Positions 10,540-39,439 are shown, numbered from the stretch's first letter. The stretch: 64,000 nt of DNA from Octopus vulgaris (GCA_951406725.2 OX597821.1:105152001-105216000), one strand, 5' to 3'. Translations and numbers: made by a program. Notes: a model not told the origin generated them from the letters alone.

Positions 10540-10732
10540 TGATAGATCGTTAGGTCCTACACGCATTTTTTCTCTCCTTGTTTTTTTCTGTGTATCTTTC
10601 TGTCGAAGAGCGTAAGCTCGAAGCGTAAAAGACTTTTTCTATTTCTATTCCTGAGCGCTATACTAATACATTTGTTTGTCTGTACTCCACCTGCCTTCGT
10701 CTTTTGTTTATTTTCGTAAACTTTCCCGTTAT
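10540..10732 (+). mobile_element. ~190-bp non-coding repeat carrying a hammerhead-like motif
   Basis: Reverse-complement homologue at 33195-33375; both flanked by microsatellite. Confidence 0.8.
10595..10632 (+). ncRNA. Minimal type I hammerhead-like motif (variant core)
   Basis: TCTTT-CTGTCGA-A-GAGC gtaa GCTC-GAAG-CGTA-AAAGA: stems I and II perfect; core deviates from CUGANGA/GAAA. Confidence 0.55.
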
Positions 10733-10907
10733 ATATATATATATATATATATATATATATATAAATAAATAAATAAATAAATATATATAATATATATATA
10801 ATATATATATATATATATATATATATATATATATATATATATATATATATATATATATATATATATATATATATATATATAATAATATTTTATATATACA
10901 TATATAT

Positions 10908-11255
10908 ATATAACATTGGATTATTCTAACGTTATGTATTTTTCTAATTTCTAAACATTATTTGTTCATGCAAAATATGAAATTCAGAGTCAACGTAAGG
11001 AATGGAAAAATACACTATTAATGTTGTTTCTTCTCCAATATTTATAACATGATACCAATATTTATAACCTGATATTCATTTCTATAACATTAGGTTTCTA
11101 TTTTCTAATTTGTAAATATTGTATTAATTTCTTAGTCGTGCAAAAATATGAAATTCGAGGAGACCTGACTTTATTTTTCGATGGAAAACATCGAAATGGC
11201 ACAGTGTAGGCATAGCCGTATTTCCAAACACATAACCTCACAGGTACACATACAC
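10908..11255 (+). repeat. Inverted partner of 7655-7985
   Basis: See 7655-7985; carries small internal duplications (ccaatatttataac twice). Confidence 0.75.
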
Positions 11256-11435
11256 ACACATACAAACTTACAAACACTGACATACAAACATACACACACA
11301 CGCACACACACACACACACACACACACACACACACACACACATATATACACACACACACACATATATATATATATATATATATACACACACACACATATA
11401 TATATATATATATATATATATATACACACATATAT

Positions 11436-11535
11436 ACGACGGGCTTCTTTCAGTGTTTCCGTCTACCAAATCCACTCATAAAGCTTTGGTCGGCTAGAGG
11501 CTATAGTAGAAGACACTTGCCCAAGGTGCCACTCC
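11436..11535 (-). mobile_element. SINE fragment
   Basis: acgacgggcttctttcag...ccaaatccactc...cccaaggtgccac matches 10263-10360. Confidence 0.85.
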
Positions 11536-11639
11536 TGCGCCTCTCTCTCTCTCTCTCTCTCTCTATATATATATATATATATACAGGTACACACGCACAC
11601 ACACACATATATATATATATATTAGCGAAATATGTATGA

Positions 11640-11745
11640 TTTTAATCTAATAATGTCTTCGCTGCATACAACGAAACGAATATATTGTGTATGTATACAC
11701 TTGGGTCTGTAGATATTTACAATTCCGTAAACATTGATAACCAAC
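11640..11745 (-). pseudogene. Candidate Cys-rich exon
   Basis: Acceptor atccactatttcAG followed by GYQCLRNCKY; donor not identified. Confidence 0.35.
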
Positions 11746-34800: not shown

Positions 34801-35334
34801 ATTAAGGGGCAAATATATTGCAGACATTAATGGTAGCTCGTTGACATTTTTTATTTTATCTCACATAAATTCACAATTAGAGTAGAAAGATCTTTCCTCA
34901 AATCACAGGTTTACAACGTTAATATACATTGAAAACACTTGTATATTTTTGGGAATATTTTGCCATTGAACTTGAATAATGGATATGTATTTTAATAATA
35001 TAGTTTAATAATATATTTAGCAACAGAAATAATGCTAGAAGCATTCAATTCTTTCGCAACATAAGTCTCAGTAATTAGATTTCTCTAAACTCATAAAATT
35101 CAGGAAATATGTAATTTCATGAGATATTTCTCTGTAGTATGAGGAGCAAAAATATATATAAAAAAAAGCTATATATCAAAAAAGTTACCGAAAGTTGCTC
35201 ATAAACAGCTTAAACAGGATTAAATAATGAACATACGAAGACTGACATAATGCAACATCTAATATCTAAAATCCAAAGGCCATAATTACTAAAATATTTT
35301 ATAAATTAATGATGCCTTACGTTATGTGAAGTTG

Positions 35335-35635
35335 TGTGGCTTACTAGATAGCGTAATCAGCTCACGTTCATTGGCTAATGGTTTCGATTACCGGTGACGC
35401 GTTATGTCCTTCAGCAAGAGACTTTGTTTCATGTTGCTCTAATCCATTCGGCCGACAATGATTAATTATTTCTTGTAATTCAAATATCTGGCCTTGTCTC
35501 ACACTTCCCGAGGAATAACTGGAAGCTATGAGTGTCTGTGAAGCACTCAGCCACTTACACGTTCATTCCACGAGGAGACTTTTCTGTTCATCGAATCAAC
35601 CGGAATACTCGTCGTCTTAACCAACAGAGTTCCAA
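35335..35635 (+). mobile_element. Old tRNA-derived SINE
   Basis: ggtttcgattacc B-box-like, cttcagcaagagacttt body shared with 13459 family. Confidence 0.7.
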
Positions 35636-36386
35636 CTATGATATGTACAATTATATAAGAATGTTGTTTTGACCGGTGAGGCATATATTCTCGCTGTAGC
35701 TTAGGAAACGTGCAGGCTACAGAAACTGTGTATCAGTGTGTCACATAATATCTGCTCACAAAAATAAACTTGGTTCCTATGAATAATTGTATTTTTACTT
35801 CAATTAAGACATATGATGCATATTCCACTTTGCAAACACTACTGCAGTAAACACGTTATTACAAGCATTCATTCAATCTGCTATATACTATATCATATTA
35901 CATTGTATTACATTATATTATATTATAGATATATCAGAATATTTGCATGCATGTACGCTTGCGTGTATGTGTGAGTATGTAGGCGTATGTATGTATGAAT
36001 ATGTATGTATATATATATATATACATATATATGTATATATATATATATGTGTGTGTGTGTGTATGTATATATATATATATGTATGTATATATATATATAT
36101 ATATATATATATATATATATATATATATATATATATACGTATGTATATATATATATACATATATGTGTGTGTATATATATGCATATAAATTAAATTAGAT
36201 ATAAAACCACTATTAGGCAAATCAAACAGTGAAAAACATAAACCAAAACATAAAAATAAACATAATTAATGTGATTGATATAATTTAATTTAATTTAATT
36301 TAATTTAATTTAACATAATTTATATAATTTACAAAAAATGCATGTCTGGTTTCTGTGGTTGAAGCTCTATAATAGTTATATGACAG

Positions 36387-36712
36387 ATAAGTGTACATGC
36401 ATATATAACAGATTAGTCAGCACACATATGTAACAGATGTCGAACGCTTATGCAAATGTAAATACTTGCACACAAAGGCACACATCCGCATAAACACAGA
36501 CATCCGGATAAACACACACACATGTATACATATATATACGTGTTTGTGTAATTATATATGTAAATATATATGTACACACACATGTATATGCATATATATA
36601 TATATATATATATATGTGTGTGTGTGTCTATATAAATTTACATTTGCATAAGCGTTCAACATCTGTTACATATATGTGCACGCTAATCTGTTATATATGC
36701 ATGTACTCTTAT
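36387..36712. repeat. Inverted repeat, 77-bp arms (36387-36463 and 36636-36712)
   Basis: Arms are reverse complements at high identity around a microsatellite-like spacer. Confidence 0.92.
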
Positions 36713-38321
36713 AAGGACTACTTCATACTTTGTAAAACAAAATACGTAGGTACACAAATATAATTATCAGAAATGGCACTTGCATTGAGGATTATAATAT
36801 AAAATAAACCGATAAAATACAGCCTACTATAAAATATAATACGTATCTTAACGCATGTCTGGTTTCTGTGGTTGATGCTATATACTAGTTATATGACATA
36901 GCGAAGGTATAAAATCAAAAGTAGTGATAATGAGAGGCCTAGAAATGATATACGGCAGGATGAAAGTTTCAGAAGTAAATAACGATAATCAAATGATTTT
37001 CGAGTATGCAGAAAACAAAATGGAATTAACATCTGTCAAAGAATTTGCAACGGAAAGTGGATAATAAAAGCTGGCGATAACAGTTTTTGTGGACCAATAA
37101 GCACGCTTGAAAGAAATAGAATATGTAAAGACAGCAAGAAACTTTTCATGAGAGAATCAAACATAAGTGGTTATATATATATATATATATATATATATAT
37201 ATATATATATATATATATATATATATATATATATATATATATATATATATATATATATATATATATATATATATATAATATATATAAAGATATATATATA
37301 TATATATATATACATATATATCCATGTATACTTATGTATACATAAACACACATACCCATATATATATATATATACATATATATATACACATATATATACA
37401 TATATATATATATATGTATTTCTTTGTATTGCACATATACACTTACGAATGTATGCGTATGTGTGTCTGTATGTGAGTTTTTGTATTTGTGTGAGTGTGT
37501 ACTTTTTACGTATATTAACAGAAATATGGGATAAATACAAAGAATAGGAGAGAACAAATGGGCTGGTTGCGACAAATGATGGAAATGTGTATTGAACACG
37601 AATGTTGGTTGTGATAATACATACGGAGATATATGAAATATCTTTTGTACTTTCTCCCGTTATTAAATGCTCATTAGCCACCATGTTTCCCTTGGTAACT
37701 AACTGTTCATGTTAAAGGAATTAATATTAAATGAACACAATATAACCACAGTTTTGTCGAGTTAAGTTAAGTTGTATATTCAGATTTTCAAATTAGATTA
37801 CAACTCACTTGGGGTATATAAAATAAAGGGGCATATCGTATAACGATACATATATACACGTATGACTACTGAAATATATATACACATATGACTACCGAAA
37901 TATATATATATATATATATATATATATATATATATATATATATATATATACATATATCGTATGTGATCTACCTGTAGCATATGGCTGTCCACATAGTGTT
38001 TATTAGCCCTAAATATACACATGTATAAGAATATTCTCTGATTTTTCAGATTTTTATATGCTAGGCTACTGGTTTTAAATTGATATTAATTAAATTAATA
38101 TTCAATTTATCTCCCTAATTATTTAAATGTTAAAATGATTATGTTCTCTAATAGGCAAAATTAACTGCAGTACTTTATTTGCTGCAGAATTTGTTTTTCT
38201 GGAATTTAGCGCGCCAGAACTCAGACATTTGAAATTAATCCCAATGTAATCGGTAGAACTAAGCACGTGTCTGGTTTTATACAGAAAACTGGTCGTTAAT
38301 TTTACAAATTATATTGGAACG

Positions 38322-38395
38322 ATCGTACTGATGAGTCTACGGACGAAGGATTACGTAAGTAATTTATTCGGTGATAGACGAAACCGGTATACGAT
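38322..38395 (+). ncRNA. Type I hammerhead ribozyme
   Basis: Stem I ATCGTA/TACGAT; CTGATGA 38328-38334; stem II GTCTA/TAGAC with long extension; GAAA 38380-38383; ACCGGT palindrome; predicted cut after A38389 (GUA). Confidence 0.92.
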
Positions 38396-39439
38396 TAATT
38401 CTAGATTTTTATGTAATTTTCATCTGTCCGCTGAATTTTCTCTGGAGAACATTCTTTCTTTGTAGTTTAATCGTATGTGGTCTACGTCCAGCATATGGCT
38501 GTCCACATAGTGTTTTTTAGCCCTAAATATACACATGTATACACACACATATATTTATATATATATATATATATATATATATATATATATATATATAAAC
38601 ATATATATGTATAGAAATATATAACTATATAGAATACATTTATAATAAAGGGCACATAATCTACTATGACCATATGCTGGAAGTAGACGCCAAATACGTC
38701 CAGCCACTGTAGGATTTTGCTTCACAATGTACACAGCTTGAAAGCGGGAAAAGCGGACCGACTAGGAGTTAATAAAATAATTCAGATAGTTCTGGATCGA
38801 TTAATTTCTGGATTAGTTTAATAACTTCTTCATCAGCGAAACATCCTGGATGAAATATATGAAAATATTTATACATCCCCACAGAAAAGCGCACACAAAA
38901 TGCAAGTACATACTCAAAAATATATACATTGAATTGCTTAGTTCACCTCAACACGTGTGTATTTGGTTACAATATTACTGAAGTAAATAAAATGTCCGGG
39001 AATTAATGAGATACATCTAAACATAATTACAGGATAAATCATTAGAATTATTGAATTCCATCAGCGGCAGGCAAATAAGAATAACCTGTTACGTAAATTT
39101 CATACGTATAGATGTATAATTGAATGGAATTATAATTACAGACACAGAAGCTGTCATGCCTATATGCTAGAAGTAGATGCCAAATACGACCAGTGACTAT
39201 TAGATTTCACTTCAAAATATACACAGGTTGAAAGCGAGAAAGATGACCTACCAAACGCGTTTTGAGGTGGACTTCGAAATTTGATGAGTGTATATTTGTG
39301 AATATTTCTATGTAATCGCATTTTGTCTGTGCTTGTCTGCGGTTATGTATAAATATTTTCATTTATTTCACCCAGTGTGTTTGGCTGATCAAGGAAAAGT
39401 TATTAAACTAATCCAGAATTTGAACAATCCAGAACTATA

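What the first reader, a model, noticed from the sequence alone, without database searches (positions are those of the whole stretch)
10595..39435. Unusually dense field of hammerhead ribozyme motifs with several different palindromic stem III keys
Seen: about a dozen motifs of the form stemI-CUGANGA-stemII-GAAA-palindrome-UH-stemI within ~29 kb, on both strands: 10595(+), 17983(-), 18378(-), 21665(-), 21878(-), 23490(-)/23632(+), 31292(+), 33285(-), 34127(+), 38322(+), 38790(-)/39375(+). Their stem III palindromes differ (ACGU, ACGYGU, ACCGGU, ACAYGUGU, AUAUAU, ACAGCU). Known: minimal type I hammerheads with palindromic stem III occur in Penelope pseudo-LTRs and metazoan retrozymes and cleave as dimers. 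Inference: several independent ribozyme-bearing non-coding families coexist here with two Penelope RT/GIY-YIG relics, and the palindrome could act as a family-specific pairing code for dimer cleavage.
Basis: partly seen in the sequence, partly recalled or inferred. Interest (0 to 1): 0.85.

Follow-up and report, generated by a model that had tools for sequence, protein, structure and literature searches.

The report
Penelope hammerhead fossils with odd cores
This stretch holds decayed end-pieces of eight jumping-gene families that each carry a small hammerhead RNA motif predicted to cut only as a pair, at a density that is ordinary for this genome, but one family with about 15,000 exact copies has a changed catalytic-core letter expected to cripple cutting while its layout appears to have been kept by selection.

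Summary
Real but mostly known. 11 of the 13 listed sites are copies of 8 multi-copy families whose relatives form minimal type I hammerheads with self-complementary stem III; 2 sites fail (17983, 21878). Only 38328 passes a strict descriptor. Density is not unusual: 3 descriptor hits per 64 kb against 20 per 400 kb of random genome; an independent library gives 5-6 against 5.3-6.2 expected. Four families lie downstream of Penelope-like RT/GIY-YIG sequence elsewhere, so they are 5'-truncated ends, not non-coding families. Palindromes are shared between families; stem I plus stem III together separate them, as chance divergence would. The unexpected part is fixed core variants: A6U (14,944 exact copies against 543; only free positions 7 and 17 vary between subfamilies), U3-A8 with A13C, U4C, A3-U8, and elsewhere in the genome G3-C8. 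I found A6U, A13C, A3-U8 and natural G3-C8 in no paper read, but the key paper (Lünse 2017) was unavailable. Cleavage untested. The scan found similar fossil fields in other genomes.

The parts
10595..10632 (+). A6U-family minimal hammerhead (core CUGUNGA, extra A at 9.1, ACGU); window copy has A15.1 changed; 3' end of a Neptune-like PLE
18378..18412 (-). Canonical-core sister family of the A6U family (CUGANGA/CCGANGA, ACGU); stem II damaged in this copy
21665..21716 (-). Family with U4C in about half of exact matches, 7-bp stem II, extra base before GAAA, palindrome ACAGCUGU; window copy has G8 and palindrome changed
23490..23528 (-). U3-A8 plus A13C family (UUGAUAA...GCAA, ACCGGU); one arm of an inverted pair 23341-23808; 3' arm of stem I partly deleted
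23634..23672 (+). Second arm of the same inverted pair; palindrome changed
31293..31335 (+). Canonical-core family, 6-bp stem II, wobble palindrome AGAUUU; upstream GIY-YIG/RT-like peptides at other loci
33285..33322 (-). A6U-family hammerhead, passes the variant descriptor; element about 33180-33376 ending in (TA)n
34133..34215 (+). Young family (96-98% identity), canonical core, 12-bp stem II, ACAUGUGU; one stem I change in this copy; element 34119-34393 ending in (TA)n
38321..38396 (+). Only intact canonical motif in the interval (7-bp stem I, ACCGGU), inside a ~515-530 bp ORF-less unit with wrap-around ends (37956-38540), retrozyme-like
38789..38842 (-). Canonical-core family with extra bases on both sides of stem II and 10-nt palindrome AUUGAUCAAU; degenerate copy, inverted partner of 39379
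39379..39436 (+). Inverted partner, degenerate, interrupted at 39443 by a SINE-like repeat
48255..48439 (+). 185-bp 3' end between (TA)n tracts of a very young PLE family (7 matches, 99.5-100% identical) with intact U4C motif at 48302 (CCGAAGA, AGUACU); relatives hold open RT and RT-EN frames; outside the listed interval
55091..55153 (+). Degenerate copy of an A3-U8 hammerhead (family core AUGAAUA, 2-bp stem II) 150 nt after the stop of the PLE relic; outside the listed interval
53166..54955 (+). Broken Penelope-like RT plus GIY-YIG relic with Neptune-type cysteine linker
8312..9567 (-). Second broken Penelope-like RT/GIY-YIG relic; no hammerhead recognised in the repeat at its 3' side
24449..24508 (+).
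17983..18025 (-). Listed site, rejected: no GAAA, no second copy found
21878..21932 (-). Listed site, rejected: its family does not carry the core

Best explanation
The interval holds 11 decayed short end-pieces of eight repeat families that each carry a minimal hammerhead motif with a self-complementary stem III, four of which lie downstream of Penelope-like reverse transcriptase/endonuclease sequence elsewhere in the genome, and the parent elements' RNAs would likely cut themselves only when two copies pair. Shown: family membership, motif layout, position 90-530 nt upstream of a (TA)n tract, inverted partners, links to coding relics. Inferred from the Penelope literature: reverse transcription starts near the RNA 3' end and usually stops early, so mostly the hammerhead-bearing pseudo-LTR end is copied into (TA)n microsatellites, often with an inverted truncated partner; the copies then decay. 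Inferred: in a parent transcript with two pseudo-LTRs the palindromes pair, each stem I forms between the two copies, and cleavage releases unit-length RNA, probably with help from the element's own protein. Inferred from variation between subfamilies: selection on master elements kept the hammerhead layout even in the A6U family, most likely for slow or protein-assisted cleavage. The window copies themselves are most likely inactive. The ORF-less ~520 bp unit at 37956-38540 is likely a non-autonomous, retrozyme-like derivative.
For: Families of 138-2,688 search candidates with intact motifs in natural copies. 19 of 25 loci picked by endonuclease DNA carry the A6U motif 370-1150 nt downstream on the same strand; an open 612-codon frame with YIDD and a weak GIY-YIG hit (E 0.0085) ends 64 nt before the core. 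U3-A8/A13C motif about 890 nt after a GIY-YIG (Pfam E 4e-7) and RT. (TA)5+ within 350 nt downstream at 12 of 13 motif sites against 31% of 2,000 random positions. Extra matches beyond the 40 scored candidates, mostly inverted neighbours (63, 56 and 50 matches). Dimer fold per strand is lower in energy than the monomer hammerhead fold for 8 of 11 natural copies, and is the cofold minimum for 2. A6U family, 78 copies: 0 of 35 constrained motif columns but both free columns (7 and 17) and 30 of 134 flank columns have a second letter at 15% or more (Fisher P 0.0008; downstream flank only 14 of 85, P 0.01). Register fixed by sister families and a C-G/G-C swap in stem I. Literature: PMC4209133, 10.1101/2021.04.23.441226, PMC11167929.
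Against: No cleavage or transcript-end data (searches gave contigs only). No coding link found for three families: the 1 of 31, 1 of 26 and 3 of 20 loci with PLE peptide hits look like unrelated neighbours; not tested for the 18378 family. For the 31298 and 34138 families the endonuclease was recognised by eye from motifs, Pfam gave no GIY-YIG hit. The three ACGU copies gain no energy from the dimer fold, and for 9 of 11 copies the cofold minimum is another structure. Mutational scanning found low activity for all changes in the CUGA region except the C3G/G8C swap (PMC9901934, passages), and hammerhead mutants did not impair insertion of an anole PLE in vitro (PMC11167929, passages). The downstream flank of the A6U family also holds invariant runs, so conservation there is not unique to the motif; most of the 78 copies were gathered by searches that included the motif.
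Confidence: 0.85

Rival explanations
1. The variant cores (above all A6U and A13C) no longer cleave; the fold is kept for another job, such as RNA dimerisation or binding by the element's protein, or is carried along because cleavage is dispensable for transposition.
For: Natural A6C cleaves at under 0.1 per min (PMC3088659, section 8); changes in the CUGA region are low-activity (PMC9901934); hammerhead cleavage was not needed for insertion in vitro (PMC11167929); Naiad PLEs spread without hammerheads (10.1101/2021.04.23.441226). U6 probably arose once from a canonical sister lineage.
Against: Across A6U subfamilies only positions 7 and 17 vary, the two that hammerhead catalysis leaves free, and the two common letters at 17 are A and U; a purely structural role need not spare G5, G8, A9, G12, A13, A14.
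Confidence: 0.4
2. The A6U RNA is cut in trans by its canonical-core sister families, which share the ACGU palindrome and three stem I base pairs.
For: The A6U and sister families form 2 of only 4 ordered pairs with compatible stem III and 3 cross base pairs in stem I; both are abundant.
Against: Only 3 cross pairs against 4-5 in self pairs; it would not explain conservation of the A6U family's own core and stem II; A6U elements are autonomous.
Confidence: 0.1
3. One reading: the palindrome is a selected family-specific pairing code that prevents cross-cleavage.
For: 16 palindromes among 20 families; no cross pair has both a compatible stem III and 4 or more stem I pairs.
Against: ACGU and ACCGGU recur in unrelated families, also inside this window; with about 2% chance of a 4-bp stem I between unrelated arms (my estimate), 0 of 20 is expected without selection; dimers are described for tandem copies in one transcript (PMC6155905, passage).
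Confidence: 0.1
4. The 29 kb is a true hotspot for these insertions.
For: All 5-6 library hits of the window fall in the 29 kb, about twice expectation (P 0.035-0.16); the interval is rich in (TA)n targets.
Against: Whole-window counts equal background; the interval was chosen after seeing the motifs; single random 10 kb tiles reach 4-7 hits.
Confidence: 0.12
5. The motifs are chance matches in AT-rich repetitive DNA.
For: True for 2 of 13 listed sites.
Against: Shuffles give 0.03-0.13 hits per window; canonical core pattern 54,027 matches against 9,135 for the reversed control; family patterns have control 0.
Confidence: 0.02

Closest known systems
Minimal hammerheads (min-HHR) of metazoan Penelope-like elements (Cervera & De la Peña 2014, PMC4209133; Lünse et al. 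2017, known to me only by title and through review PMC6765202)
   Same: Type I topology, short palindromic stem III, frequent extra base at 9.1, G10.1-C11.1, many heterogeneous families per genome, mostly single copies from truncated elements, inverted close pairs, U3-A8 variant, extra A before GAAA (one row of Fig. S3).
   Different: Fixed A6U, A13C, A3-U8, U4C and (elsewhere in the genome) G3-C8 cores; none appears among the 56 motifs of Fig. S3 as read in text form, which has no cephalopod. Palindromes up to 10-11 nt and stems II up to 12 bp.
Neptune-clade EN+ Penelope-like elements (10.1101/2021.04.23.441226)
   Same: C-terminal GIY-YIG with CX2-5CxxC linker motif, DKG motif, 5' truncation, inverted partner, (TA)n insertion bias.
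   Different: Clade assigned from motifs only, no tree built; the 31298 and 34138 families may belong to other clades.
Metazoan non-LTR retrozymes (PMC7229834; 10.64898/2026.07.22.740005)
   Same: ORF-less unit with one type I hammerhead and more-than-unit copies (37956-38540 family); a classical 359-bp tandem array turned up in a random stretch (L167).
   Different: Unit of ~515-530 bp, mostly dispersed with partial wrap-around and inverted partners rather than long arrays; circular RNA not tested.
Natural hammerhead core variants (Perreault et al. 2011, PMC3088659)
   Same: U3-A8, U4C (viroid), insertion in GAAA, 2-bp stem II, palindromic weak stem III.
   Different: Those were rare single examples (A6C in a phage); here variant cores are the majority state of families with hundreds to tens of thousands of copies.

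Membership tests
PLE minimal hammerhead | Type I topology with core CUGANGA / GAAA / UH | tested here: met
   Met by 5 of 8 families; 3 of 8 carry variant cores in the same register. Only 1 of 11 window copies passes the strict descriptor.
PLE minimal hammerhead | Short palindromic stem III | tested here: met
   8 of 8 families, 2 with a G-U wobble.
PLE minimal hammerhead | Extra base between 9 and 10.1, and G10.1-C11.1 pair | tested here: met
   Extra base in 5 of 8 families; G-C pair in all 8, though most copies of the 38328 family have A at 10.1.
PLE minimal hammerhead | Position in the pseudo-LTR downstream of an RT + GIY-YIG frame | tested here: inconclusive
   Met for the A6U and U3-A8/A13C families and by motif reading for the 31298 and 34138 families; also for 48302 and 55105. 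Not found for the 38328, 38836 and 21711 families; 18408 family not tested.
PLE minimal hammerhead | 5' truncation, inverted partner and microsatellite insertion | tested here: met
   Two inverted pairs in the window; (TA)5+ downstream at 12 of 13 sites against 31%.
PLE minimal hammerhead | Cleaves as a dimer, not as a monomer | not testable with these tools
   Folding energies only: favour the dimer for 8 of 11 copies.
Non-LTR retrozyme | ORF-less tandem units, each with a hammerhead | tested here: inconclusive
   38328 family: no linked ORF, wrap-around copies, two same-strand hammerheads 529 bp apart at one locus; no long arrays seen.
Non-LTR retrozyme | Expressed as linear and circular monomer RNA | not testable with these tools
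Canonical (tertiary-stabilised) type I hammerhead | Loop 1-loop 2 tertiary contacts and efficient monomer cleavage | not tested
   Not examined.

The most novel reading that the evidence does not exclude
This genome's Penelope-like elements have evolved working hammerheads with cores thought not to work: an A6U core spread to at least 15,000 exact copies under selection that spared every other catalytic position, an A13C core paired with U3-A8, and all four Watson-Crick pairs at the 3-8 position as family-wide natural states. They would cleave as dimers with help from the element's own protein, giving a natural mutant series for asking whether PLE hammerheads need to cleave at all.
Probability: 0.35. 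Interest if true: 0.75.

Novelty: new variant of a known kind. Interest (0 to 1): 0.5.

Why it matters
The field of motifs itself is ordinary for a PLE-rich animal genome. What matters is the variant cores. The function of PLE hammerheads is an open question: cleavage is weak in vitro (PMC4209133), protein-assisted and dispensable for insertion in one system (PMC11167929), and absent in Naiads. A highly successful autonomous family with A6U, beside canonical sisters of the same layout, lets that be tested directly: if it cleaves, the accepted core consensus and the descriptors built on it miss large natural families; if it does not, the hammerhead fold is under selection for a non-catalytic role. 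Natural G3-C8, A3-U8, U3-A8 and C3-G8 families in one genome would also be evolutionary support for the 3-8 tertiary pair.

Tried and rejected
Rfam scan: no hammerhead among the best 150 of 208 matches, which were microsatellite look-alikes of miRNA families. Sites 17983 and 21878 rejected. First density test was swamped by one (AT)n-like and one SINE-derived library entry; repeated after filtering. Endonuclease next to the 21711 family in L142/L216 rejected as a chance neighbour, since 30 loci of that endonuclease family end in the A3-U8 motif instead. The repeat 3' of the 8.3 kb relic looks like an inverted-repeat element, no hammerhead. A descriptor with positions 3 and 8 free gave recurrent families only with paired 3-8, apart from one SINE-like false positive and one misregistered A3-U8 cluster; its filter excluded two-letter palindromes. 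RNA runs: no RNA holder listed; four runs laid were contigs and cannot show ends or strand. Lünse et al. 2017 not held. Earlier notes on this genome or on the A6U sequence: none. No phylogeny of the RTs was built and no covariance model was calibrated.
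Full report
Setting. The window lies on contig C8 of a 2.8-Gb, 227-contig genome and is rich in (TA)n and other microsatellites. Size and repeat content fit an octopus; this is my inference, not a call result.

Observation. A strict hammerhead descriptor finds one motif in 64 kb, at 38328(+), against a mean of 0.03 in 30 shuffles. 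The other listed sites have defects in the window copy. Searching the genome with each site shows that 11 of the 13 listed coordinates are copies of eight families with 138 to 2,688 first-look candidates (the 18378 family was found among fetched loci), and aligned natural copies form complete stem I, core, stem II, GAAA box, self-complementary stem III and UH. Two sites fail: 17983 has no GAAA and no second copy; the family of 21878 mostly reads CUGAUUA and lacks GAAA. Two further family-backed motifs lie outside the interval, at 48302 and 55105.

Density. A variant-tolerant descriptor gave 3 hits in the window and 20 in 40 evenly spaced 10-kb stretches (400 kb; 7 of the 20 in one tandem array), against 0-2 in ten shuffles. 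A canonical-core pattern has 54,027 genome matches against 9,135 for the reversed control, so 1.2 are expected per 64 kb; the window has 2. With a library built from DNA independent of window and test set, the window scored 5 and 6 against 6.2 and 5.3 expected; the chosen 29 kb scored 5 and 6 against 2.8 and 2.4 (Poisson P 0.16 and 0.035; 22% and 6% of random three-tile sums), uncorrected for choosing the interval. The field is ordinary for this genome, with at most a mild local excess.

What the families are. Penelope-like RT/GIY-YIG relics lie at 8312-9567(-) and 53166-54955(+); the endonuclease query has 18,111 candidates genome-wide. For the 10595/33285 family, 19 of 25 loci picked by endonuclease DNA carry the motif downstream on the same strand, and an open 612-codon frame ends 64 nt before the core (Pfam GIY-YIG E 0.0085, below cut-off). 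The 23490/23632 family follows an RT and a GIY-YIG (E 4e-7) by about 890 nt. Upstream of the 31298 and 34138 families I read GIY-YIG-like and RT-like motifs by eye, shared by several loci but without Pfam hits. No link was found for the 38328, 38836 and 21711 families; the 38328 family is a ~515-530 bp unit with wrap-around ends, like a non-autonomous retrozyme. A (TA)5+ tract follows within 350 nt at 12 of 13 motif sites against 31% of random positions (at 39385 the tract belongs to an inserted repeat), and inverted partners occur at 23341-23808 and 38552-40100. These match the PLE hallmarks in 10.1101/2021.04.23.441226 (passages). The 185-bp piece at 48255-48439 shows the process freshly: seven near-identical matches, relatives with open RT and RT-EN frames flanked by inverted motif copies.

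Mechanism. Shown: layout and context. Inferred from PMC4209133 (parts 1-2 of 4 of the text and parts 1-2 of 3 of the supplement read) and PMC6765202 (passages): stem III is too short to close alone, so two copies pair through the palindrome. Folding of 11 natural copies favoured the double-hammerhead over the monomer hammerhead in 8, but not in the three ACGU copies, and it was the overall cofold minimum in only 2. PMC11167929 (passages) reports that an anole PLE hammerhead cleaves only with the element's protein and is not needed for insertion in vitro, so protein help is likely and necessity is open.

Palindrome code. Among 20 families seen at two or more loci there are 16 palindromes, ACGU and ACCGGU each in three or more; 20 of 380 ordered pairs are stem-III compatible, none with 4 or more cross pairs in stem I and four with 3 (one natural copy stands for each family). 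Because stem I is also intermolecular in the dimer, family specificity comes from both stems and needs no selected code. A search for hammerhead heterodimer tests showed no relevant title among 15 of 55 listed.

Variant cores. (1) A6U: 14,944 exact matches with U at 6 against 543 with any other base (hand count of the first 100 of the latter about 71 C, 20 A, 9 G, as decay would give). Position 7 in the first 100 was 44 U, 25 A, 20 C, 11 G. The register is fixed by canonical sister families and a stem I swap (95% of cells paired, one pair with change on both sides; relatedness not controlled). In 78 copies only positions 7 and 17 of 37 motif columns vary between subfamilies, against 30 of 134 flank columns, the pattern expected if master elements were selected for a hammerhead. 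(2) U3-A8 with A13C: 991 matches, 96 of the first 100 with C13 and none with A. (3) U4C: about 56 of the first 100 of 234 matches in the 21711 family (the rest U, partly explicable by CpG decay), in sister families and in the very young 48302 family. (4) A3-U8: 156 matches, A3 in all and U8 in 93 of the first 100, at the end of the 53-55 kb relic's family, with a 2-bp stem II and stem I length covarying. (5) G3-C8: 4,681 matches, G3 in all and C8 in 98 of the first 100; no window copy and no coding link in 15 loci.

Comparison with print. U3-A8 (PMC4209133, PMC3088659), U4C in a viroid, A6C and an insertion in GAAA (PMC3088659 section 8 and passages) are known. PMC9901934 (passages) found the engineered C3G/G8C swap active and all other changes in that region low. 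I did not find natural A6U, A13C, A3-U8 or G3-C8 in searches or in the 56 motifs of PMC4209133 Fig. S3; two octopus repeat papers mention Penelope but not hammerheads (PMC13282606, PMC8967140; passages; search 13). This is weak evidence of novelty: Lünse et al. 2017, the largest survey of such variants, was not held, the supplements of PMC3088659 were not read, and figures are not held. PMC7229834 and PMC6155905 (passages), 10.64898/2026.07.22.740005 (parts 1-2 of 5) and PMC3884650 (passages) cover retrozymes, dimers and position 17. Hammerhead numbering and the free status of positions 7 and 17 follow PMC3088659.

Verdict. The motifs are real PLE-type minimal hammerhead fossils; the density and the palindrome code are not supported; the fixed core variants, led by A6U, are the part worth an experiment. 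Earlier scan notes on other genomes describe the same general kind of field.

Noticed in passing
L317-L331 (e.g. G000:C1:3622613): A family of at least 4,681 exact matches with a G3-C8 hammerhead core, 7-9 bp stem I and palindrome AAUAUU, as short (TA)n-flanked pieces with inverted partners; no copy in the window.
   Followed up: partly
window 48255-48439; L392, L393: Very young Neptune-like PLE family (7 matches, 99.5-100% identity) with open 679- and 775-codon frames and an intact U4C hammerhead; possibly still active.
   Followed up: partly
L167:2250-4560 (G000:C1:20.00 Mb): Tandem array of about 359-bp units, each with an intact canonical hammerhead (ACCGGU), on both strands: a classical non-LTR retrozyme array.
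   Followed up: no
window 38478-38500(+) and 38665-38692(-): The 38328 and 38836 families share an ~18-nt motif about 150 nt downstream of the hammerhead, perhaps a common protein-recognition site or sign of kinship.
   Followed up: no
window 40408-41997: A 1.6-kb (AAG)n-type microsatellite that produces three spurious open frames of about 600 codons.
   Followed up: no
window 5394-5705(-) and 62761-63894(+): Two further reverse transcriptase fragments (Pfam RVT_1, E 7e-12 and 1e-22), probably LINEs.
   Followed up: no
window 7601-8300 and 10797-11318: An inverted-repeat-type element (270 candidates for its 8097-8300 part) interrupts the 3' side of the 8.3-9.6 kb PLE relic; related sequence lies inverted at 10797-11318.
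   Followed up: partly
window 9943-10410, 39443-39855, 48041-48256, 50712-50979; 19335-19843, 59530-60027: Abundant SINE-like repeats; one interrupts the hammerhead copy at 39385.
   Followed up: no
window 61358-61489: A 132-bp imperfect hairpin (best Rfam score in the window, far below the family threshold).
   Followed up: no
window 17955-18025: Single-copy imperfect inverted repeat with a CUGANGA on each strand; origin unexplained.
   Followed up: partly
window 29465-30157: Direct tandem duplication of about 345 bp at 88% identity.
   Followed up: no
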